Shown here: one piece after another, positions 6,372-32,523 of the stretch
Layout: the number at the start of each line of letters is the position of its first letter
Numbering within the stretch: the stretch's first letter is position 1
Sequence record: SRR31156797_933
Length of the DNA: 37,062 nucleotides
Strand: one strand, 5' to 3'
The notes under the pieces: generated by a model
The model's input: the letters and a program-made list of their open reading frames with translations, nothing else
Told to the model about the DNA's origin: nothing
The model's database searches: none
Made by a program: the position numbers and the translations under genes

Positions 6372-6396
6372 CAACCTTTTTATTTTTTTGTGTCTT
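6372..6396 (+). promoter_or_regulatory. Putative ECF-sigma (auto)promoter CAACC-N12-TGTGTCTT
   Basis: AAC-N16-GTC geometry typical of ECF promoters, directly upstream of an ECF sigma gene; identical boxes and spacing recur at 10104-10128. Confidence 0.68.
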
Positions 6397-6438
6397 GTAA
6401 ATGAGTCGAAGTTATTGAAGACTGAAACTATTAGTGCT

Positions 6439-7458
6439 GTGAAGAAAAATTTGGATGAAATTTATTCAGCTTATGCTCCTGAATTGTTTAAAATATGTTT
6501 GAGATACAGCAATTCCAAAGCGGAAGCTGAAGATTTACTTCACGATAGTTTTATCAGGATTTACGAACGGTTGACTCAATATAAAGGTAAAGGTTCTTTT
6601 GAAGGTTGGTTGAAACGTATTGTGGTTAGTGTGGCACTAAACAAATTAAGAACGAACCGCTTTACACCGTCACATCACGAGTCTTTTGATGATATAAAGG
6701 AAGTTGATATTGAAAAGGAAAGTGATGATTTGCCCGAGGAGCGAGGATTAATTCTCGATGCTGGTATTGATCAGAATGATGTGATTGAATGTATGCAGGA
6801 ATTACCTGCAAAAGCTAAAGCCGTTTTTAACCTTTATGTTTTTGAAAAAATGAAGCATAAAGATATTGCCAAAGAATTAGAAATAACTACTAGTACATCA
6901 AAAACCCAATTGAAAAGAGCCAGAGTATTATTACATAAACAGCTATTGAAGCGAGCCAACATGAAAATGAAAAACATAAAAAAATTATCAATTTTGGCCA
7001 TCTTTTGGCCGGCAAGTAAATATTCCCATGTGGATGGAACGGTGAAATCGGCCTTGGATAAAGGCCAGGTCACGCCACCTGCAATGGATATGAATTCCAT
7101 TGTTTCATCAGCAAATAAATTAGAAAAACTTGCACTTGTTTCGAAATCTGGAGGATCAATTGTTAGTCAAGTTGCTACCCACATGAAGTCTAATGCAGTG
7201 GCGTATACGGTTGGCACAGTCGCTGTAGCAACTACTACAGCTATGATTACCTTTTTACCTTCTTCTATGAATGAAACAGAAAATATTGAACACATTACTC
7301 CACGATCAATTGAAAGTTTAATTCAACCTCAAGAAATATTAATAGAATCAATTCCTCAGGAAACTCCAAAAGTTATTCATTTTAATGATGTTAAAACTAA
7401 GCCGGATACCATTACTGTTTATGAAAGAATTCGGGTTGTAGATTCATTGAAAAAGTAG
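6439..7458 (+). CDS. ECF RNA polymerase sigma-70 factor with long C-terminal extension (anti-sigma-like segment plus putative transmembrane helix)
   Basis: Region 2 (CLRY..EAEDLLHDSF..GSFEGWLKRIVV) and region 4 (LP..AKAVFNLYVFE.MKHKDIAKEL..TSKTQLKRAR), then about 165 extra aa including AVAYTVGTVAVATTTAMITFLP. Start probably GTG 6439 or TTG 6415, since TTG 6388 overlaps the promoter motif. Confidence 0.88.
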   Translation: MKKNLDEIYSAYAPELFKICLRYSNSKAEAEDLLHDSFIRIYERLTQYKGKGSFEGWLKRIVVSVALNKLRTNRFTPSHHESFDDIKEVDIEKESDDLPEERGLILDAGIDQNDVIECMQELPAKAKAVFNLYVFEKMKHKDIAKELEITTSTSKTQLKRARVLLHKQLLKRANMKMKNIKKLSILAIFWPASKYSHVDGTVKSALDKGQVTPPAMDMNSIVSSANKLEKLALVSKSGGSIVSQVATHMKSNAVAYTVGTVAVATTTAMITFLPSSMNETENIEHITPRSIESLIQPQEILIESIPQETPKVIHFNDVKTKPDTITVYERIRVVDSLKK

Positions 7459-7587
7459 ATTTAATTTTCATTTTTACTTATTGTACTGACATGCAGTGCT
7501 AATCGATTGAGATTAGTGGATTTTTGTTATTTTTTTATAACAAAAAGAAAAAAAATATCTAAATTGAGGCCGCTAAAACTGCATGTG

Positions 7588-8631
7588 ATGTATTCAGGGA
7601 ACAGGCGAAGAATAGTATTCACAATTTCTTTGTTTTTGCTCTGTTTGTCGTTGATTGGTCAAAATATAAAAGAGGATAGCTCTGGGAAATACTTTCTGAA
7701 AGCTGATACTACTTATACAGATACGACAATAGGGGGAAAGAATGTTGTATTGCGTAATATAACAATTTACGACACTGTATATATTATACCTGAATCAACT
7801 TATCGTCCCCTTGAAATAGATACTTATCATAATCAATTTATTAATCCACTAATTGATACTAGTTTGTATGGTAGTCCGTTAAAAAACTTTTGGGACTTTG
7901 AAGTTGGTTTTGCTTATGGATTTGGAATTCCATTTCAACCCTTTATCGGATATCATGATGTTTTGAAGGATATAAAATCTATGCAGTCTTTTGAGGGATT
8001 TTTCCATGGTGCCAGATATTTTAATAATTGGTATTTGAAAAGTGGTTTAAATCTTTCGTATACTCAAGAAAAACAGAAGTTTTCCAAAACAACAGTGTCA
8101 GTTGATTCAACAAATTCCTACGTATTTACTTATGATTCCGTTATTATTGTTGTTGATTCACTTTTAGACCTGAATCAACTTCCCGATTCCGTTTATATTG
8201 TTGATATTGATACACTTGAGTATTATTTAATGCGCGATACTTTATACAAAAGTCAAAGAATCACAAAGAACTATGAGCCTGTTAATAAATACTTTCATAT
8301 AGGAGCCCCACTTTTATTTGGACATTTATTTAAATATAAAAAATTTGATTTTGCTCTTGAAGGAGGATTTTATTTTAATTTTTTAGTCAAAGTGAATGGA
8401 AAAAGTATAGATTATTTCAATGATATTCGTCAATTAAGAGAAAAATATTTCTATAGGTTTTCTACGGATTTAGCTCTAAGATTTCAGTTTCGGTATAAGC
8501 TAAAATCATTACGGTATGTAACCTTCACGCCACTAGTGCGTTATAATTTGATAGATGAATACAGCAGTGCAGACTTTGCGCGGAAGAAAAATTTAAGTTT
8601 GCGCTTTGCTATTGGTTATAATTTTTATTAA
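7588..8631 (+). CDS. Outer-membrane beta-barrel protein with signal peptide
   Basis: Signal peptide RRRIVFTISLFLLCLSLIG-Q from ATG 7588; alternating amphipathic strands (YFHIGAPLLFG, FALEGGFYFNFL); aromatic C-terminus LRFAIGYNFY. Confidence 0.72.
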   Translation: MYSGNRRRIVFTISLFLLCLSLIGQNIKEDSSGKYFLKADTTYTDTTIGGKNVVLRNITIYDTVYIIPESTYRPLEIDTYHNQFINPLIDTSLYGSPLKNFWDFEVGFAYGFGIPFQPFIGYHDVLKDIKSMQSFEGFFHGARYFNNWYLKSGLNLSYTQEKQKFSKTTVSVDSTNSYVFTYDSVIIVVDSLLDLNQLPDSVYIVDIDTLEYYLMRDTLYKSQRITKNYEPVNKYFHIGAPLLFGHLFKYKKFDFALEGGFYFNFLVKVNGKSIDYFNDIRQLREKYFYRFSTDLALRFQFRYKLKSLRYVTFTPLVRYNLIDEYSSADFARKKNLSLRFAIGYNFY

Positions 8632-8640
8632 CTTGTAACG

Positions 8641-10077
8641 ATGTTTATTAGGTTGATCATAACGCTTGTTTTGGGATTTTCATGTTTTGCCTCAATGGCT
8701 CAATATGAAGTAACAGGTACTGTCACCAATACACGTCAAGATAAAGAAATTATTCCTAATCATCCGGTTTACTTTTTTGTTGATTCAGTATTAATTGATA
8801 AGGTAAATACTAACCTACAGGGCTCATATAGTTATTTTTTTGAAGAAAACTTAAATGGCGCATTAATCATAAAAACTGTTGGGTTTTGTGACTCCTGGAT
8901 AATTTATACAGATACTTTAGGTAGGTCATCAAAAGACGTCACAATTATTAATTTTGAAATTTGTCATCAAGATACTTCCGCTTCATGTATCTCCTCTTTT
9001 GAATATGAACATGTCGATTCGGTAACACTCAATTTTAAACCTAATCATAATTTAGAGAATTTAATGGATTATGACTGGGATTTTGGAGATAATCAAAATG
9101 GTAGCAATGACTATAATCCTCAATACCAATATGCAGATCAAAATGTTTATGTAGTCCAATTAATTACTACTAACCCATTTGGATGTGTAGATACAAGTAT
9201 AAGTGAGGTCCTTGCCAGTGATAATACATTAGTTAGGGGCCAACTTTCAATTCCAAACAATTTTTTTGCAAATGCATTTATTCATTTAATAGGGATTGAG
9301 GACAATTTAATAAAAGAAACTGTGTATCCTAATGAGCAAGGATTCTATCAGATTTGGTGCGAACCTGATGATTATATTATTAAAATTGTTCCTGACCTAG
9401 ATATTGATGATTACTTTCCAAGGGTATTGTCAACATATTTAGGAGGGACAATTGATTGGCTTGAAGCCGAGGTAATTACAGATGAACATGAAATTAAAGA
9501 TGTGAATATTGAAGCACTTACTTCTGTTTTTATTCCAAATAGTTTTAATAAAATTTCTGTTAAGTTAGAGGCGGATTTTAACTTAAATCAATTACCAATA
9601 GGAGTTTATTTATTAGATGAAAATTTTGAACCTATTGATTTTGGAAAAGAAGTAGCTCAAGATCGTTTTGAGTTTGATGGTCTCCCCCGCGGTACATATT
9701 ATGTATTTCCCGAATGCCCTGGAAGAAATTCAAATCCTTATCAAGTTGTTTTTGAGTATACAGGTGAAGCACCTGTCTTTCTTGAGTTCATAGTGCAAGA
9801 TACAGAAATTAAACCTGTTGGGATTAATGATCTTGTAAGAAACGATGATCGGTTTAATCTTTATCCTATCCCAGTAAAAAACTTATTAAATATAAAAGCA
9901 GAATACCCTGTTTCTAAAATCCAGATTACTGATGCCAGTGGCAGATTATTTTCCTCACAGCAGTTCGGAATGGAAAAAAATTGTTCGCTATCAACACATA
10001 ACTGGCCCCAGGGAATTTATTTTGTGACAGTTTTTTTTGACGGGCAACCTCCTGGCTGTCAGAAGATTATAAAATAA
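8641..10077 (+). CDS. Secreted PKD/Ig-like domain protein with T9SS type A C-terminal sorting domain
   Basis: Signal peptide ending SMA-Q, YDWDFGD PKD motif, CTD LYPIPVKNLLNI..DASGR..QGIYFV..KIIK. Confidence 0.88.
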   Translation: MFIRLIITLVLGFSCFASMAQYEVTGTVTNTRQDKEIIPNHPVYFFVDSVLIDKVNTNLQGSYSYFFEENLNGALIIKTVGFCDSWIIYTDTLGRSSKDVTIINFEICHQDTSASCISSFEYEHVDSVTLNFKPNHNLENLMDYDWDFGDNQNGSNDYNPQYQYADQNVYVVQLITTNPFGCVDTSISEVLASDNTLVRGQLSIPNNFFANAFIHLIGIEDNLIKETVYPNEQGFYQIWCEPDDYIIKIVPDLDIDDYFPRVLSTYLGGTIDWLEAEVITDEHEIKDVNIEALTSVFIPNSFNKISVKLEADFNLNQLPIGVYLLDENFEPIDFGKEVAQDRFEFDGLPRGTYYVFPECPGRNSNPYQVVFEYTGEAPVFLEFIVQDTEIKPVGINDLVRNDDRFNLYPIPVKNLLNIKAEYPVSKIQITDASGRLFSSQQFGMEKNCSLSTHNWPQGIYFVTVFFDGQPPGCQKIIK

Positions 10078-10103
10078 TTTATAATTTCTTCATAATTTCT
10101 TTA

Positions 10104-10128
10104 CAACCATTTAAATTCTTTGTGTCTT
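10104..10128 (+). promoter_or_regulatory. Second copy of putative ECF promoter CAACC-N12-TGTGTCTT
   Basis: caacc 10104-10108, 12-nt spacer, tgtgtctt 10121-10128; identical boxes and spacing to 6372-6396. Confidence 0.65.
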
Positions 10129-10134
10129 ATAATT

Positions 10135-10418
10135 GAAAAGAAAATTGAGATTATTCACACCCGTTTGTATCTCATTTACTTTGAACGCTCCCTGCCTTAT
10201 CCCCAAAACAGGCTTTTTTATAAGGTAGGTTATTTTTTAAAAGGATCGGGTTTAGAGAGGTTTATTACAATTGTCTGCAAATACTTATACAAAGATTTCC
10301 CGATAGGCCATCAATTTTAGGGTTAACAGCTATGAGAATCCATTAGAATTGCACCCGATCCTGCTTCTTCCGCTCAATTTAGCAGGATTTCGGTCATTAA
10401 CCGGAATCCTTTTCTTTT
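10135..10418 (+). ncRNA. Candidate structured small RNA or attenuator leader (no family recognised)
   Basis: Bounded by ECF-type promoter and terminator; helices 10146-51/10169-74, 10191-200/10220-29, 10242-51/10353-62, 10358-65/10381-88, 10384-94/10400-10. Confidence 0.5.
10384..10418 (+). terminator. Intrinsic terminator upstream of the cyclase gene
   Basis: 11-bp stem AGGATTTCGGT/ACCGGAATCCT (one G-U), 5-nt loop, followed by TTTCTTTT. Confidence 0.75.
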
Positions 10419-10445
10419 GTAAAATATTTACTATATTTAGGCTTC

Positions 10446-11963
10446 ATGATTGCAAGTAAATCAATATCGATTGTGATACTTGGAAGCCCTTCTGGATTTA
10501 GTATTTCTGAATTAGAAGCAGCTTTGGATTACCATAAATTTATTCAATGTAACGATATTTCAAAATTGAAAAATGACTTTGACTTATTGTTGATTTTTGA
10601 AGATGTTGATTCTTTTTCCAGAAAATATATTCGAGGTAACGCCCAAATATGGGCTTTAGCAAGCTTGCAAAATAGATTCTGGGCTGACGATTTATTACCT
10701 GGCAATTGCGATATTTCATTTATTAAAGAAAAAATTCTCCATTTTGTAAACCGTAATATAAATGTATCAATGGCCAATAGAGCTTTGATGCAGTTGGCTA
10801 ATTCTATTAATAACTCTGTAGCAATTTGTGATTCAGAAGGCCTTTTAATATGGACAAATGCGGCATTTGAAGCTATTTACGGGTATACAAGAAAGGAATT
10901 TATAGAACTTTATGGAGAAAATATTTTTGAGTTCAGTAGGGAAGAGGGTATTAGCGAAAAAGTTCAGAGCATAAAATCAGACAAAGAACCTGTAAATTAT
11001 ATATCTGATATTATAACTAAAAAAGGCGAGAACAAATCACTTCAAACTACCTTGTCTCCTGTATTTGAACAAGGCAAATTGAAATGGATTGTAGCTATTG
11101 AAAGTGATATAACAGAAATAAGAAAATCAGGAGAATTAATTCAAGAAAAGAGTGATTCTTTGAAAGATCTTACGAAGGAATTGCAAGTTGTAAATCAGGA
11201 ATTACAGGCTCAGCGTGATCAGTTAAATGATAAGCATGAGGAGCTTACTAAGGAAAAGCAAAGAACTGATGAGTTGTTACATAATATTTTACCTGAAATT
11301 GTCGCTCATCAGTTAAAGAAAGGTAAAAAGAAACCTAAACGACATAAATCAGTAACAGTGATGTTTGCAGACTTTAAGGGTTTTACAAAAATATGCAAGC
11401 AACTTGATCCACCTGAGATTGTAAATACTTTAGATGAATTGTTTTCTGAATTTGATCGTATTGTGGAGAAGCACTTTATTGAGAAGATTAAAACTATTGG
11501 TGATGCTTATATGTGCGCAGGCGGAATGCCCATGAAAAATAATAGCCACCCTGTAAATATTGTAATGGCAGCGTTAGAGATTCAACAATTTCTTTTTGAG
11601 TATAATAAACCTCGAATGATTAATAAGGAAATTGTATGGGAATGTCGTATTGGAGTCCATTCAGGAGAAGTATTTGCAGGTGTAGTAGGAGAGAAAAAGT
11701 TTGCCTATGATATTTGGGGCGATACAGTAAATTTAGCTGCACGAATGGAAACTGCAGGAGCTGTTAATACAGTCAATATCTCAGATTCCACTTATGAATT
11801 GGTGAAAGAATATTTTGTGTGCATACCCAGGGGAGAAATCGAGGTTAAAAATATTGGTAAAGCCAATATGTATTTTGTTCAAGGATTAAAACCTGAATAT
11901 ACTGATGATCCAATAGGCGTAATACCAAACGAAAAATTCAATAATATTTTAAGAAGTCTATAA
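10446..11963 (+). CDS. Class III adenylate cyclase with degenerate receiver-like N-terminus, PAS domain and coiled coil
   Basis: VMFADFKGFT, KIKTIGDAYM, RIGVHSG, YDIWGDTVNLAARME; PAS signature IWTNAAFEAIYGYTRKE...ESDITE; heptad region before ELLHNILP. Confidence 0.93.
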   Translation: MIASKSISIVILGSPSGFSISELEAALDYHKFIQCNDISKLKNDFDLLLIFEDVDSFSRKYIRGNAQIWALASLQNRFWADDLLPGNCDISFIKEKILHFVNRNINVSMANRALMQLANSINNSVAICDSEGLLIWTNAAFEAIYGYTRKEFIELYGENIFEFSREEGISEKVQSIKSDKEPVNYISDIITKKGENKSLQTTLSPVFEQGKLKWIVAIESDITEIRKSGELIQEKSDSLKDLTKELQVVNQELQAQRDQLNDKHEELTKEKQRTDELLHNILPEIVAHQLKKGKKKPKRHKSVTVMFADFKGFTKICKQLDPPEIVNTLDELFSEFDRIVEKHFIEKIKTIGDAYMCAGGMPMKNNSHPVNIVMAALEIQQFLFEYNKPRMINKEIVWECRIGVHSGEVFAGVVGEKKFAYDIWGDTVNLAARMETAGAVNTVNISDSTYELVKEYFVCIPRGEIEVKNIGKANMYFVQGLKPEYTDDPIGVIPNEKFNNILRSL

Positions 11964-25952: not shown

Positions 25953-26711
25953 TTAGAATAAATTATAGATCAGCAAAGTCGTAGTTAGTAACGTGAGATA
26001 AGGTGTCATTTCTATTAATAGCCTTTTTGCATATCTAGGCCGCGTGTCTATATAAATTATATCATTTGCCTGGAGTTGTAAGTTTGTTCCTCTTAATTCC
26101 TCAAGCGATGCAACGTTATATTTAAAAACTTCCGGATTTTTTGATACATCTCCCCGAATAAGTTTTACTTTGTATGCTTTATCGCCATCAGGTATGCCGC
26201 CACTCATAGCTAAGGCTTCAATTAGCGTAAGCCTGTCTTCAGGAATATTTATAACAGAGCCTTTTTCACCACCACTCTTGAAAATGTATACTTTACGATT
26301 GATGATTCTTAAAAGTATAAATGGATTATTGTAGAACTCAGTGTATTTGCTTTCAAGTAATTTTTCTGCTTCACGGATTGTTAGATCACTAACTTTTATT
26401 CTTCCCAATACCGGTATTTTTACAAAGCCATCATATTCAACGAGATATTCGATTTCTTGTTTTAGATTTTGCGTATTGCCGGTTTTTTCTCCAATATTAA
26501 TCAGAATGTTACCATCATTTGTAGTAATGCTCAAACCAATGATATCATATGCCTGGATACGATATTCTTTTTCAACTTCTGGTTTGAATTCATTGTATTG
26601 AAAGTCTTTTTCGGTTTCAAACATTTTATTGGGTTGCAAAATAGAACACGATTGCAGCACAATTAAAAAGATAATTGAAATAGATAAAAATAGCTTTGAC
26701 TGAATTCTCAT
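25953..26711 (-). CDS. wza: Polysaccharide export outer-membrane lipoprotein
   Basis: LQSC lipobox, DGFVKIPVLG, LTLIEALAMSGG (SLBB), LQANDIIYI; start at 26711 or 26723. Confidence 0.9.
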   Translation of the reverse strand: MRIQSKLFLSISIIFLIVLQSCSILQPNKMFETEKDFQYNEFKPEVEKEYRIQAYDIIGLSITTNDGNILINIGEKTGNTQNLKQEIEYLVEYDGFVKIPVLGRIKVSDLTIREAEKLLESKYTEFYNNPFILLRIINRKVYIFKSGGEKGSVINIPEDRLTLIEALAMSGGIPDGDKAYKVKLIRGDVSKNPEVFKYNVASLEELRGTNLQLQANDIIYIDTRPRYAKRLLIEMTPYLTLLTTTLLIYNLF

Positions 26712-26733
26712 ATTTCCACACATTATTAACTCT

Positions 26734-31088: not shown

Positions 31089-32483
31089 TTATTGATCCTG
31101 ACTGAACATTGGATCCCAAGGTGGAAGTTTGATCGCTTTTTCTTCAAGTATTTTTGTTACGTTTTCAGGTAAATATTTTTTCAATACTATGACTCTAAAC
31201 ATATATTCATCAAACCATTCATCTGTAAAAGTTAAATAGCCATTATGTCCGCTTGAGCTACCCCAACTGTTTTCAAATTGCCATTTTACGGTTTTTCCTT
31301 CTTTGTCAACATCAACTGCAACCATTGCCATTCCATGGCTTGAGCCGCTTTCACGACTTAGAATTCGTTCTTTTTTGTCCATACCGAATGAGATGCCATA
31401 AACACTTTCAAAATCATAGTTTTCAATATCTAATAATCCTAAATCACTATTTAGTTGTTTGCCAACATCGCAAGAACCATACATGGCATCATTTCCTTTG
31501 ATTGATTCTACTGCGTATTTTTTTATATCCTCATTTGGAAGGTTAATATACGTCCAGTTGATACCCTCCATTACATTTCTATCATTTTCAATTTCATATA
31601 GTTTATAATACTCACGAGTTGGGTCGTTCATAAGCATGATATAATTCTCATAATTGATTTCTGGAAGTACTTCATTAGCAAAAGTAAGTGGTGTATACGT
31701 TTTTGATTCTTCAATTGATCCATCTTTTGAAACAAATCTATAATTAAATTCTGTTGGAGGTTGACCTAGATTTAACGCGAGCATTTTATATACTGTGCTC
31801 ATCATTTCAACCTTCTTTTTTTCCAGGTTTTTGTATTTTTCTCCTTTGGTATGCAGTTCTCTGAGCTCCAGCGCAAATTCACGTAGTTTGCGATTAAGCA
31901 TTCTTCGCATATAGCTGGTGCTTTCAGAGTTATGTGTTTCCGGCATAATACTAGATGGTACAAGTCCATATTTTGTTACAAGATTAGTGAATGAACTCCA
32001 TACACCACCATCTCCCACGGGTGAGCCCAATAACCAATGGTTTATGCGACTATCAACATCCTCTCCGGCATGTTTGATTATATTTTCAAGAAATAAATTG
32101 GCTTTTTCAAATTGATCCCAAAAGAACAAATGGTTTTGAGAAAAATGGAAATCCGAAAGGTTGTATTTATCAATTACTTTTGGCCTTATTACATTTAGGC
32201 TGGTGAATAACCAACATCTGCCCGAACTCTTTTGGTCAGAAATACCAGTTACGTCAACTTTATATTTGAAATGATGTTCAATGCCGCTTAAGTTATTGCG
32301 GTTAAGGGCAATTTTTTTAATGCTGTTGTTTGTTAATGCATTCATTCGCATAATGTTGGTTTTGTCCTCCATAAATTGCGAACGCATCTCTTTTATCATT
32401 TCTTCATTAATTGCGCCTTTCTGGGCATTTAATATTGTTGAGGCTATTATTAAGAAGATCGAAGTAATTAATATATTTTTCAT
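31089..32483 (-). CDS. pepC: Aminopeptidase C / bleomycin hydrolase (peptidase C1B) with signal peptide
   Basis: QKSSGRCWLF, SSHGM, ENSWG, PWDPMF; signal peptide from MKNILITSIF (ATG 32483). Confidence 0.92.
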   Translation of the reverse strand: MKNILITSIFLIIASTILNAQKGAINEEMIKEMRSQFMEDKTNIMRMNALTNNSIKKIALNRNNLSGIEHHFKYKVDVTGISDQKSSGRCWLFTSLNVIRPKVIDKYNLSDFHFSQNHLFFWDQFEKANLFLENIIKHAGEDVDSRINHWLLGSPVGDGGVWSSFTNLVTKYGLVPSSIMPETHNSESTSYMRRMLNRKLREFALELRELHTKGEKYKNLEKKKVEMMSTVYKMLALNLGQPPTEFNYRFVSKDGSIEESKTYTPLTFANEVLPEINYENYIMLMNDPTREYYKLYEIENDRNVMEGINWTYINLPNEDIKKYAVESIKGNDAMYGSCDVGKQLNSDLGLLDIENYDFESVYGISFGMDKKERILSRESGSSHGMAMVAVDVDKEGKTVKWQFENSWGSSSGHNGYLTFTDEWFDEYMFRVIVLKKYLPENVTKILEEKAIKLPPWDPMFSQDQ

Positions 32484-32523
32484 AATCAGATTGAATTGAT
32501 TGTACCGTGATTTGTTGAGCATT

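What the first reader, a model, noticed from the sequence alone, without database searches (positions are those of the whole stretch)
10242..10418. Riboswitch/attenuator-like mutually exclusive helices upstream of adenylate cyclase
Seen: a perfect 10-bp long-range helix AGGATCGGGT (10242-51) / ACCCGATCCT (10353-62) enclosing about 100 nt; an alternative 8-bp helix ATCCTGCT (10358-65) / AGCAGGAT (10381-88) that overlaps both it and the terminator stem (10384-94/10400-10 + U tract), which ends 27 nt before the cyclase ATG. Established: this anti-antiterminator / antiterminator / terminator logic is that of transcriptional OFF switches. I recognise no known aptamer in the enclosed region, so it may be a new cis-regulatory RNA. 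Alternative: an independent sRNA, since TATATTTAG at 10432-10440 could be the cyclase's own -7 box.
Basis: partly seen in the sequence, partly recalled or inferred. Interest (0 to 1): 0.78.

Follow-up and report, generated by a model that had tools for sequence, protein, structure and literature searches.

The report
Conserved structured RNA upstream of cyclase
A roughly 230-base folded non-coding RNA that ends in a strong terminator sits just before an adenylate cyclase gene in a Salinivirgaceae bacterium; it looks real and matches no described family, but the proposed on/off switch helix is not kept in its only known relative.

Summary
A syntenic homologue of the whole intergenic region exists in one other genome (L001, uncultured Bacteroidales). 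Comparing the two shows a real plus-strand structured RNA of about 230 nt. It has a 5' hairpin P0 (10191-10229), the long-range helix P1, an inner hairpin P3 and the intrinsic terminator. Of 52 window base pairs, 6 show compensatory double changes, 6 one-sided compatible changes, 3 paired deletions and 3 are broken. Rfam 15 has no match. The alternative "antiterminator" helix, which is what makes this a switch, is not conserved: -10.0 kcal/mol in the window against -1.0 or worse in L001. P1 is very stable (-17.4 and -21.7 kcal/mol) and stays formed at every nascent length modelled. A -7-like promoter box lies 6-7 nt before the cyclase ATG in both genomes. A more distant relative without the RNA has a perfect box near its ATG. 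My best reading is a constitutively terminated, stand-alone small RNA of a new family, with the cyclase read from its own promoter. A riboswitch or attenuator remains a serious rival. Only two sequences were available, so neither reading is settled.

The parts
10104..10143 (+). Conserved block 1 (CAACCATTT ... TGTGTCTT ... TGAAAAG). It lies upstream of the inferred transcription start and its role is unknown (regulator site, or part of a longer transcript).
   Evidence: Conserved columns in pairwise alignment A2 with L001; no function tested.
10159..10183 (+). Conserved block 2: ACCCGTTTGT (10159-10168) plus the -7-like box TTACTTTG (10176-10183). This is the candidate promoter of the RNA, with an inferred start near 10188.
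   Evidence: 5 of 6 consensus positions of TAnnTTTG. The aligned box in L001 is TGACTTTG at 9503-9510. In both genomes the inferred +1 lies 3 nt before hairpin P0, using the 4-5 nt box-to-start spacing from passages of PMC6847099. Inference only; there are no TSS data.
10191..10229 (+). Hairpin P0: a 10-bp stem (10191-10200 / 10220-10229) and a 19-nt loop containing the conserved CAAAACAGGCU (10204-10214).
   Evidence: Predicted independently in the window and in L001 (9518-9526 / 9545-9553). There are 3 compensatory double changes, 1 one-sided change and 1 paired deletion in the stem, while the loop core is identical.
10242..10362 (+). P1-closed multi-helix domain. P1 is 10242-10251 / 10353-10362. 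A tentative P2 is 10259-10266 / 10302-10309. Hairpin P3 comprises P3a (10312-10319 / 10344-10351) and P3b (10320-10324 / 10337-10341), with an invariant 12-nt loop at 10325-10336. Invariant unpaired stretches are 10268-10280 and 10293-10314.
   Evidence: MFE folds. P1 has 1 compensatory and 1 wobble change, with the terminal pair lost. P3b has 1 compensatory and 2 one-sided changes. P3a has a paired deletion. In P2, 2 of 8 pairs are broken in L001. Across 10293-10338 the two genomes differ by only 1 deletion and 1 substitution.
10363..10383 (+). Linker between P1 and the terminator, containing the conserved, predicted single-stranded UUCUUCCGC (10365-10373).
   Evidence: Alignments A4 and curated; unpaired or only weakly paired in the MFE.
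10358..10388 (+). It is seen as a stable helix in the window only.
   Evidence: -10.0 kcal/mol as an isolated hairpin in the window. The L001 equivalent is -0.2 to -1.0 kcal/mol, or +2.2 in the homologous register. In nascent transcripts an expected 2.1 pairs form in the window against 0.017 in L001.
10384..10418 (+). Intrinsic terminator: 11-bp stem, 5-nt loop, then TTTCTTTT.
   Evidence: Pattern scan. It is -14.5 kcal/mol. L001 has the equivalent at 9705-9732 followed by TTTTTTATTG, with 1 compensatory change (U-A to C-G) and 1 paired deletion. The best Rfam sub-threshold hit here is only terminator-like: ctRNA_p42d, 25.5 bits against a gathering score of 50.
10432..10439 (+). -7-like box TATATTTA, the candidate promoter of the cyclase itself. 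The inferred start near 10444 would give a (near-)leaderless mRNA.
   Evidence: 5 of 6 consensus positions. L001 has TATCTTTA ending 7 nt before its ATG. L002 has a perfect TATATTTG ending 14 nt before its ATG. Inference only.
10446..11963 (+). Downstream gene: PAS domain, coiled-coil and class III cyclase domain, 505 aa. It is read as an adenylate cyclase.
   Evidence: Pfam Guanylate_cyc 7.8e-54 and PAS_9 3.6e-11. The best solved relatives are adenylate cyclases 9, 8 and 5 (E 2e-57). K349 and D422 align with IEKIKTIG / YDIWGDTVN of the AC9 second catalytic domain. That this Lys/Asp pair specifies ATP is recalled knowledge.

Best explanation
The spacer encodes a plus-strand, highly structured non-coding RNA of about 230 nt, from roughly 10188 to 10418, which matches no family in Rfam 15. 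It consists of a 5' hairpin (P0) with a conserved loop, a domain closed by the 10-bp helix P1 containing hairpin P3 and long invariant unpaired stretches, a conserved single-stranded linker (UUCUUCCGC), and a strong intrinsic terminator. I think it most likely is a stand-alone, constitutively terminated small RNA. It would be transcribed from the conserved -7-like box at 10176-10183. The cyclase would be transcribed separately, as a (near-)leaderless mRNA, from the -7-like box at 10432-10439 that overlaps the end of the RNA gene. Shown here: the homology, the structure, the strand, the terminator, and the absence of an Rfam match. Inferred: both promoters, the transcript ends, and independence from the cyclase. 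The mode of action is also inferred. It would be either base-pairing through the conserved exposed segments (the P0 loop CAAAACAGGCU, the P3 loop AACAGCUAUGAG, which share AACAG, and the linker) or protein binding.
For: (1) Homology. The 368-nt spacer aligns to the syntenic 370-nt spacer of L001 at 70.7% identity over 348 columns (blastn E 2e-29; nhmmer 2.7e-27). Of the five window stretches that hit L001 at E <= 1e-10, it is the only one not lying mainly in ORFs. The neighbouring genes at 7507-10077 gave no DNA-level hit.
(2) Structure. Independent MFE folds of the two sequences give the same P0, P1, P3b and terminator. In a structure-aware alignment, the 52 window pairs split into 34 unchanged, 6 one-sided compatible, 6 compensatory, 3 paired deletions and 3 broken. 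With 21 changed paired sites a random-substitution null expects 12.5 broken pairs; 3 were observed, and 0 of 5000 trials did as well. RNAalifold on the unedited MAFFT alignment also recovers P0, P1 and P3b, with 4 pairs changed on both sides, and has a column-shuffle z of -2.65 (2 of 300).
(3) Strand. z is -3.68 on plus against -1.70 on minus; G-U pairs exist only on plus.
(4) Not coding. The two sequences differ by indels of 8, 6, 5, 3, 2 and 1 nt within the element.
(5) Constitutive termination. P1 is -17.4 kcal/mol in the window and -21.7 in L001. It is in the MFE at all six nascent lengths modelled in each genome. The alternative helix is essentially absent in L001.
(6) Separate promoters. 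Conserved -7-like boxes place a start 3 nt before P0 in both genomes, and 2-3 nt before the cyclase ATG in both (with spacing). L002, which lacks the RNA (77-nt spacer; no CM hit), has a perfect TATATTTG giving a leader of about 10 nt. Perfect TAnnTTTG boxes precede 6 of 26 window ORFs, two of them within 10 nt of the ATG.
Against: Only two sequences exist, and they are syntenic, so association with the cyclase cannot be separated from shared ancestry.
Both proposed -7 boxes miss one of six positions that passages of PMC6847099 call nearly invariant: A-11 for the RNA box and G-5 for the cyclase box. No -33 TTTG sits at the expected spacing for the RNA box in either genome, nor for the cyclase box in the window; L001 has ATTG 20 nt upstream of its cyclase box.
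A terminator only 27-32 nt before a same-strand start codon is the classic position of a cis-acting leader.
The amount of invariant unpaired sequence (22, 17, 13, 11 and 9 nt runs) is more typical of an aptamer or a tertiary fold than of a base-pairing sRNA.
In the window itself the alternative helix is appreciable: -10 kcal/mol and about 2 of 8 pairs expected in the nascent ensemble.
L001 kept the RNA-to-ATG juxtaposition even though its cyclase lost about 95 N-terminal codons.
No trans target could be identified. A duplex scan against start regions of neighbouring genes gave no target shared by the two genomes.
Confidence: 0.45

Rival explanations
1. It is a cis-acting leader (riboswitch, or protein- or RNA-dependent attenuator) of the cyclase mRNA. 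Transcription starts near 10188. The P1-closed domain senses a ligand or factor, and the terminator at 10384-10418 decides whether polymerase reaches the cyclase gene.
For: The terminator ends 27 nt (window) and about 32 nt (L001) before the same-strand ATG. The junction and loop nucleotides are very highly conserved while the stems covary, as in aptamers. The window has an 8-bp helix that is mutually exclusive with both P1 and the terminator. Neither candidate cyclase -7 box is canonical. An internal invariant CCCGAU (10299-10304) could pair with the P1 5' strand (10245-10250) before the distal strand is made, which offers a kinetic route to switching (sequence; inference).
Against: The antiterminator is not conserved: at best -1.0 kcal/mol in L001, and forcing it costs +13.4 kcal/mol. 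P1 is a perfect 10 bp, and 17 bp with one bulge in L001. It dominates every nascent-length fold, unlike the marginal P1 helices of known OFF switches (recalled). No Rfam aptamer matches. A conserved -7-like box is correctly placed for an independent cyclase start. The covariance model built from the two sequences found no further copy in 80 loci around related cyclase genes, including L002 and three other Salinivirgaceae loci (L015, L034, L037).
Confidence: 0.3
2. It is the long structured 3' UTR of the upstream operon (ECF-type sigma factor, unknown protein, PKD/T9SS-sorted protein ending at 10077). It might be processed into a 3'-UTR-derived small RNA, with 10384-10418 serving as that operon's terminator.
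For: No other terminator-like site lies between the stop codon at 10077 and 10384, and the same holds in L001 over 9300-9900. The spacer is conserved right from about 10089, including blocks 1 and 2 upstream of the inferred start.
Against: Conservation upstream of P0 is patchy, and I could not trace a helix there that is kept in L001 (fold of the window read against the alignment; the L001 upstream spacer was not folded). Block 2 ends in a -7-like box placed 3 nt before P0 in both genomes, which fits an internal start. The pattern scan would not see Rho-dependent or non-canonical terminators.
Confidence: 0.1
3. It is not a functional RNA. The conservation would reflect DNA-level sites (regulator binding sites, promoter architecture) or chance, and the helices would be incidental.
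For: A perfect 10-bp inverted repeat occurs in 12% of shuffles of this AT-rich spacer. The invariant stretches contain short palindromes (CAATTG, GGCC, GTTAAC) of the kind proteins bind. Only two sequences are available.
Against: Six compensatory double substitutions and three paired deletions fall in four helices. Only 3 broken pairs were seen where 12.5 are expected (0 of 5000 trials did as well). The fold signal is strand-specific. The terminator hairpin and T-run are conserved.
Confidence: 0.05

Closest known systems
Transcription-terminating OFF riboswitches with a P1-closed multi-helix junction (for example purine or SAM-I type architecture; recalled, not tested by name)
   Same: A long-range P1 encloses a conserved multi-helix domain and is followed by an intrinsic terminator a few tens of nt before a same-strand gene. 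Stems covary while junctions and loops are invariant.
   Different: There is no match to any Rfam aptamer. P1 is far more stable, at -17 to -22 kcal/mol. The antiterminator is not conserved. No ligand is known. Only two syntenic instances exist.
Intergenic small RNAs of Bacteroidota with a TAnnTTTG-type promoter and an intrinsic terminator
   Same: An intergenic, plus-strand transcript with a -7-like box, a 5' hairpin, conserved exposed loops and a strong terminator; narrow phylogenetic range.
   Different: It is larger and more elaborately folded (about 230 nt, with a P1-closed domain), with much more invariant unpaired sequence. It abuts the next gene's start codon. No targets are known, and the promoter box is non-canonical.
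Rfam RF00489 ctRNA_p42d (best sub-threshold Rfam hit)
   Same: A hairpin followed by a UUUUCUUUUG tail at 10381-10420.
   Different: 25.5 bits against a gathering score of 50. The match covers only the terminator hairpin and is generic terminator likeness, not family membership.

Membership tests
Any curated Rfam 15 family | Covariance-model score at or above the family's gathering threshold | tested here: not met
   0 matches in the whole window at gathering thresholds. A permissive scan of 10050-10480 gave 5 sub-threshold matches, the best being ctRNA_p42d at 25.5 bits against 50. For L001 9400-9790 there were 2 matches, both at E >= 0.76.
Terminator-type OFF riboswitch | Conserved structured sensor domain with covarying helices | tested here: met
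   P0, P1, P3 and the terminator are shared by the window and L001, with 6 compensatory changes. This rests on only 2 sequences.
Terminator-type OFF riboswitch | Intrinsic terminator between the sensor and the regulated ORF, on the same strand | tested here: met
   the terminator ends 27 nt and about 32 nt before the ATG.
Terminator-type OFF riboswitch | Conserved antiterminator pairing that is mutually exclusive with P1 and the terminator | tested here: not met
   -10.0 kcal/mol in the window. In L001 it is -0.2 to -1.0 kcal/mol, or +2.2 in the homologous register. An expected 0.017 pairs form in the L001 nascent ensemble.
Terminator-type OFF riboswitch | The regulated mRNA starts upstream of the sensor (the element is a 5' leader) | not testable with these tools
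   No transcript data. -7-like boxes exist both upstream of the RNA and directly before the ATG.
Terminator-type OFF riboswitch | Specific ligand binding | not testable with these tools
   Needs in-line probing or ITC.
Terminator-type OFF riboswitch | Recurrent association with functionally related genes in independent genomic contexts | tested here: inconclusive
   Only 2 instances, both syntenic. Model R1 found no copy in the other 79 cyclase-family loci.
Stand-alone bacterial sRNA gene | Own promoter | tested here: inconclusive
   TTACTTTG (window) and TGACTTTG (L001) match 5 of 6 consensus positions and sit 3 nt before P0 in both genomes. No -33 element and no TSS data.
Stand-alone bacterial sRNA gene | Own Rho-independent terminator | tested here: met
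Stand-alone bacterial sRNA gene | The downstream gene is transcribed independently | tested here: inconclusive
   TATATTTA (window) and TATCTTTA (L001) end 6-7 nt before the ATG. L002 has a perfect TATATTTG ending 14 nt before its ATG. There is no experimental support.
Stand-alone bacterial sRNA gene | Trans targets or a protein partner | tested here: inconclusive
   The duplex scan against start regions of neighbouring genes gave no target shared by the window and L001. No whole genome was available.

The most novel reading that the evidence does not exclude
The P1-closed domain is the aptamer of a new riboswitch class that controls an adenylate cyclase gene, for instance by sensing a cyclic or other nucleotide as feedback. 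No natural cAMP-sensing riboswitch turned up in the one phrase search I ran (0 papers with 'cAMP riboswitch').
Probability: 0.12. Interest if true: 0.85.

Novelty: new member of a known kind. Interest (0 to 1): 0.45.

Why it matters
Regulatory RNAs in Bacteroidota outside the gut Bacteroides are poorly charted, and this phylum lacks Shine-Dalgarno-based control. A new, elaborately folded RNA family next to a second-messenger cyclase is therefore a useful entry point. If it is an sRNA, its several invariant exposed segments predict defined targets or a protein partner. If it is a leader, it would be the first RNA sensor tied to cAMP synthesis. A cultured relative carries an ortholog of the cyclase (Salinivirga cyanobacteriivorans, 58% identity). 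The question becomes testable at the bench if that genome also carries the RNA, which I could not check.

Tried and rejected
1. Rfam at gathering and at permissive thresholds, on the window and on L001, gave nothing beyond terminator likeness.
It returned mostly paralogues. Only L001 (73% identity) and L002 (49%) look orthologous. The Salinivirga cyanobacteriivorans locus and any locus with near-identical protein identity (as the window's own genome would give) were not among the 80.
3. Covariance model R1, built from the two sequences, was searched over the window and the 80 loci (1.26 Mb). It gave no further copy; the next best hit was 21.6 bits, E 0.089, and was a generic hairpin.
4. Coding potential was rejected. 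The 66-codon TTG ORF at 10120-10320 has no Pfam match, and non-triplet indels separate the two genomes.
5. Minus-strand RNA was rejected (and G-U pairs exist only on plus).
6. A sigma-70-type promoter scan is not informative for this phylum.
7. I looked for a canonical -33 TTTG at 15-24 nt from each -7-like box. None was found for the RNA box in either genome, nor for the cyclase box in the window. L001 has ATTG at 20 nt from its cyclase box.
8. A duplex search of conserved loops against start regions of neighbouring genes gave top hits that differ between the two genomes. The best window hit (-17.2 kcal/mol, gene 969-1985) relies on G-U pairs and has no counterpart in the L001 locus.
9. Other alternative pairings were read by eye from the sequence: the linker UUCCG with the terminator 3' arm CGGAA (also drawn by RNAalifold), and the internal GAUUUC with GGAAUC. 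By that reading they are conserved but only 5-7 bp and long-range, so too weak to compete with an 11-bp local hairpin. Their energies were not computed.
10. Literature searches: 'cAMP riboswitch' found 0 papers. 'riboswitch candidate' + 'adenylate cyclase' + 'Bacteroidetes' found 1 review, listing only, not read. 'Salinivirga' + 'riboswitch' found 0. The search was badly framed (any 2 of 4 terms), and none of the 10 rows listed held 'Salinivirga'.

Full report
**Observation.**
- P1 is AGGATCGGGT 10242-10251 paired with ACCCGATCCT 10353-10362.
- The alternative helix is ATCCTGCT 10358-10365 paired with AGCAGGAT 10381-10388.
- The terminator is 10384-10394 / 10400-10410 followed by TTTCTTTT 10411-10418.
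- Twenty-seven nt separate the T-run from the ATG at 10446, and TATATTTAG is at 10432-10440.
- The pattern scan finds this as the only terminator-like site in 9900-10700.

By length alone the 10-bp perfect helix is not surprising in this AT-rich spacer: 12.35% of 2000 dinucleotide shuffles reach 10 bp or more. The fold as a whole is unusually stable and strand-specific. For 10186-10420 on the plus strand the MFE is -63.1 kcal/mol, z = -3.68, and 0 of 200 shuffles fold as well. On the minus strand z = -1.70, with 12 of 200 as good.

**Context.**
- The downstream ORF 10446-11963 (505 aa) has a PAS domain and a class III cyclase domain (Pfam).
- Its best solved relatives are adenylate cyclases 9, 8 and 5 (E 2e-57). 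K349 and D422 align with IEKIKTIG and YDIWGDTVN of the AC9 second catalytic domain. By recalled knowledge that Lys/Asp pair specifies ATP.
- The upstream ORF 8641-10077 carries a PKD domain and a T9SS sorting tail. It follows an unknown ORF (7507-8631) and a sigma-70 family protein.
- Named protein relatives are Salinivirgaceae and other Bacteroidales. The nearest are five metagenomic proteins at 79-83% identity, and Salinivirga cyanobacteriivorans at 58%.
- Perfect TAnnTTTG boxes precede 6 of 26 ORFs in the window, which fits a Bacteroidota-type promoter.

**Known families.** Rfam 15 gives no match at gathering thresholds anywhere in the window. A permissive scan of 10050-10480 returns only sub-threshold hits. 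The best is ctRNA_p42d at 25.5 bits against a gathering score of 50, and it covers just the terminator hairpin. The homologous L001 region also gives nothing.

**Relatives.**
Two look orthologous: L001 (73% identity over residues 106-505) and L002 (49%).
- The window's 368-nt spacer aligns to the syntenic 370-nt spacer of L001 at 70.7% identity over 348 columns (blastn E 2e-29; nhmmer E 2.7e-27).
- That is as conserved as the coding DNA, and more conserved than the two neighbouring genes at 7507-10077, which gave no DNA-level hit.
- Across 10293-10338 the two genomes differ by one deletion and one substitution. Other identical runs are 10268-10280, 10204-10214 and 10365-10373.
- A covariance model built from the pair (R1) found no further copy in the window or the 80 loci (1.26 Mb). 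The next best hit was 21.6 bits at E 0.089.
- L002 has only a 77-nt spacer before its cyclase and no element.

**Structure.** Folding each sequence on its own gives the same helices:

| Helix | Window | L001 |
|---|---|---|
| P0 | 10191-10200 / 10220-10229 | 9518-9526 / 9545-9553 |
| P1 | 10242-10251 / 10353-10362 | 9558-9567 / 9675-9684, extended by 9568-9574 / 9667-9673 |
| P3b | 10320-10324 / 10337-10341 | 9640-9644 / 9657-9661 |
| Terminator | 10384-10394 / 10400-10410 | 9705-9715 / 9722-9732 |

I built a structure-aware alignment by coordinates. The 52 window pairs split as follows:
- 34 unchanged.
- 6 changed on one side but still paired.
- 6 compensatory double changes: three in P0 and one each in P1, P3b and the terminator.
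- 3 paired deletions: one each in P0, P3a and the terminator.
- 3 broken: the terminal pair of P1 and two at the base of a tentative P2.

With 21 changed paired sites, a random-substitution null expects 12.5 broken pairs. Three were observed, and 0 of 5000 trials did as well. That alignment was fitted to the structure, so it leans towards it. The unedited MAFFT alignment still recovers P0, P1 and P3b, with 4 pairs changed on both sides and a column-shuffle z of -2.65 (2 of 300). Indels of 8, 6, 5, 3, 2 and 1 nt argue against coding. I conclude that a plus-strand structured RNA spanning at least 10191-10418 is real.

**The switch.**
- In the window that hairpin is -10.0 kcal/mol in isolation. 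The terminator is -14.5 and the P1 duplex -17.4.
- Forcing the alternative helix costs +4.6 kcal/mol on the full-length RNA and +4.8 on the nascent transcript.
- P1 is in the MFE at all six nascent lengths modelled.
- About 2 of the 8 alternative pairs are expected in the nascent ensemble.
- In L001 the homologous positions give +2.2 kcal/mol, and the best local alternative is -0.2 to -1.0 kcal/mol.
- Forcing it in L001 costs +13.4 kcal/mol, and the ensemble expectation is 0.017 pairs. P1 there is -21.7 kcal/mol.
- By eye, other conserved alternative pairings with the terminator 3' arm are only 5-7 bp and long-range. One of them, UUCCG with CGGAA, was also drawn by RNAalifold. I did not compute their energies.

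So P1 and the terminator are conserved, but the antiterminator that would make them a switch is not. Thermodynamic models predict constitutive termination in both genomes.

**Promoters (inferred; there are no transcript data).** No perfect TAnnTTTG lies in either spacer. Two boxes matching 5 of 6 consensus positions are conserved in place.
- TTACTTTG at 10176-10183 aligns with TGACTTTG at 9503-9510 in L001.
- TATATTTA at 10432-10439 aligns with TATCTTTA at 9763-9770 in L001.

Passages of PMC6847099 (passages only) put the -7 element at -12 to -5 with 4-5 nt to the start. They describe the -33 element as weak, and report that 87% of Flavobacterium johnsoniae leaders exceed 10 nt.

With that spacing the first box starts the RNA 3 nt before P0 in both genomes. 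The second box starts the cyclase mRNA 2-3 nt before its ATG in both genomes. L002, which lacks the RNA, has a perfect TATATTTG at 9892-9899 with its ATG at 9914. This cyclase lineage therefore plausibly uses a promoter hard against its start codon. Two other window genes have perfect boxes ending 10 nt or less from their ATG.

**Interpretation.** The most likely reading (about 0.45) is a stand-alone, constitutively terminated small RNA of a new family. The cyclase would be read from its own promoter, which overlaps the end of the RNA gene. The conserved exposed segments are candidate interaction sites:
- the P0 loop CAAAACAGGCU;
- the P3 loop AACAGCUAUGAG, which shares AACAG with the P0 loop;
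- the linker UUCUUCCGC.

A duplex scan against neighbouring start regions found no target shared by both genomes.

The main rival (about 0.3) is a cis-acting leader.
- The terminator-to-ATG distance fits that reading.
- So do the aptamer-like amount of invariant unpaired sequence and the non-canonical promoter boxes.
- L001 kept the juxtaposition even after its cyclase lost about 95 N-terminal codons (410 against 505 aa).

A third reading (about 0.1) is a structured 3' UTR of the upstream operon, which has no other terminator-like site. A non-RNA explanation is unlikely (about 0.05), given the compensatory changes.

**Limits.**
- There are only two sequences, and they are syntenic.
- The closest relatives (P0001-P0005) and the S. 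cyanobacteriivorans locus therefore stayed unchecked.
- Literature searches found no described cAMP riboswitch or Salinivirga riboswitch. One review matched broader terms but was not read. These searches cover only the held open-access library.

**Verdict.** The switch logic is not supported by the one available comparison.

Noticed in passing
L001 9778-11010 vs window 10446-11963: The L001 cyclase is 410 aa and lacks the first ~95 residues of the window's 505-aa protein; the match starts at residue 106. The RNA, its terminator and the TAnnTTTA-ATG junction are nevertheless retained. More distant 505-aa orthologues keep the N-terminal region, so L001 probably lost it.
   Followed up: partly
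L002 9837-9913: The 49%-identical cyclase relative has only a 77-nt upstream spacer, no copy of the RNA, and a perfect -7 box TATATTTG (9892-9899) ending 14 nt before its ATG.
   Followed up: yes
window 10242-10251, 10299-10304, 10353-10362, 10384-10394, 10400-10410: The arms of P1 and of the terminator resemble each other: AGGAUCGGGU and AGGAUUUCGGU, ACCCGAUCCU and ACCGGAAUCCU. An invariant internal CCCGAU repeats the core of the P1 3' strand. In L001 all four arms changed in parallel (GG to GA or G; CC to UC or C). The meaning is unknown; it might allow kinetic alternative pairings.
   Followed up: partly
window 10104-10143 and 10159-10168: Conserved blocks lie upstream of the inferred RNA start: CAACCATTT...TGTGTCTT...TGAAAAG, and ACCCGTTTGT. 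I recognised no promoter or regulator consensus in them. They could be a regulator site or part of a longer transcript.
   Followed up: no
window 6388-10077: The upstream same-strand gene set is a sigma-70 region 2/4 protein with a long C-terminal extension, an ORF with no Pfam match, and a PKD/T9SS-tail protein. No terminator-like site follows it before the RNA's own terminator.
   Followed up: partly
window 10446-11963 (residues 349, 422): The Lys/Asp pair aligned with the adenylate cyclase 9 C2 domain suggests ATP specificity. One source nevertheless names the Salinivirga orthologue a guanylate cyclase.
   Followed up: partly
window 25953-26723 (-) and 31089-32522 (-): Perfect TAnnTTTG boxes end 10 nt and 1 nt before the first in-frame ATG of these ORFs. 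This suggests very short or absent leaders, or mis-set starts, at other genes of this genome.
   Followed up: no
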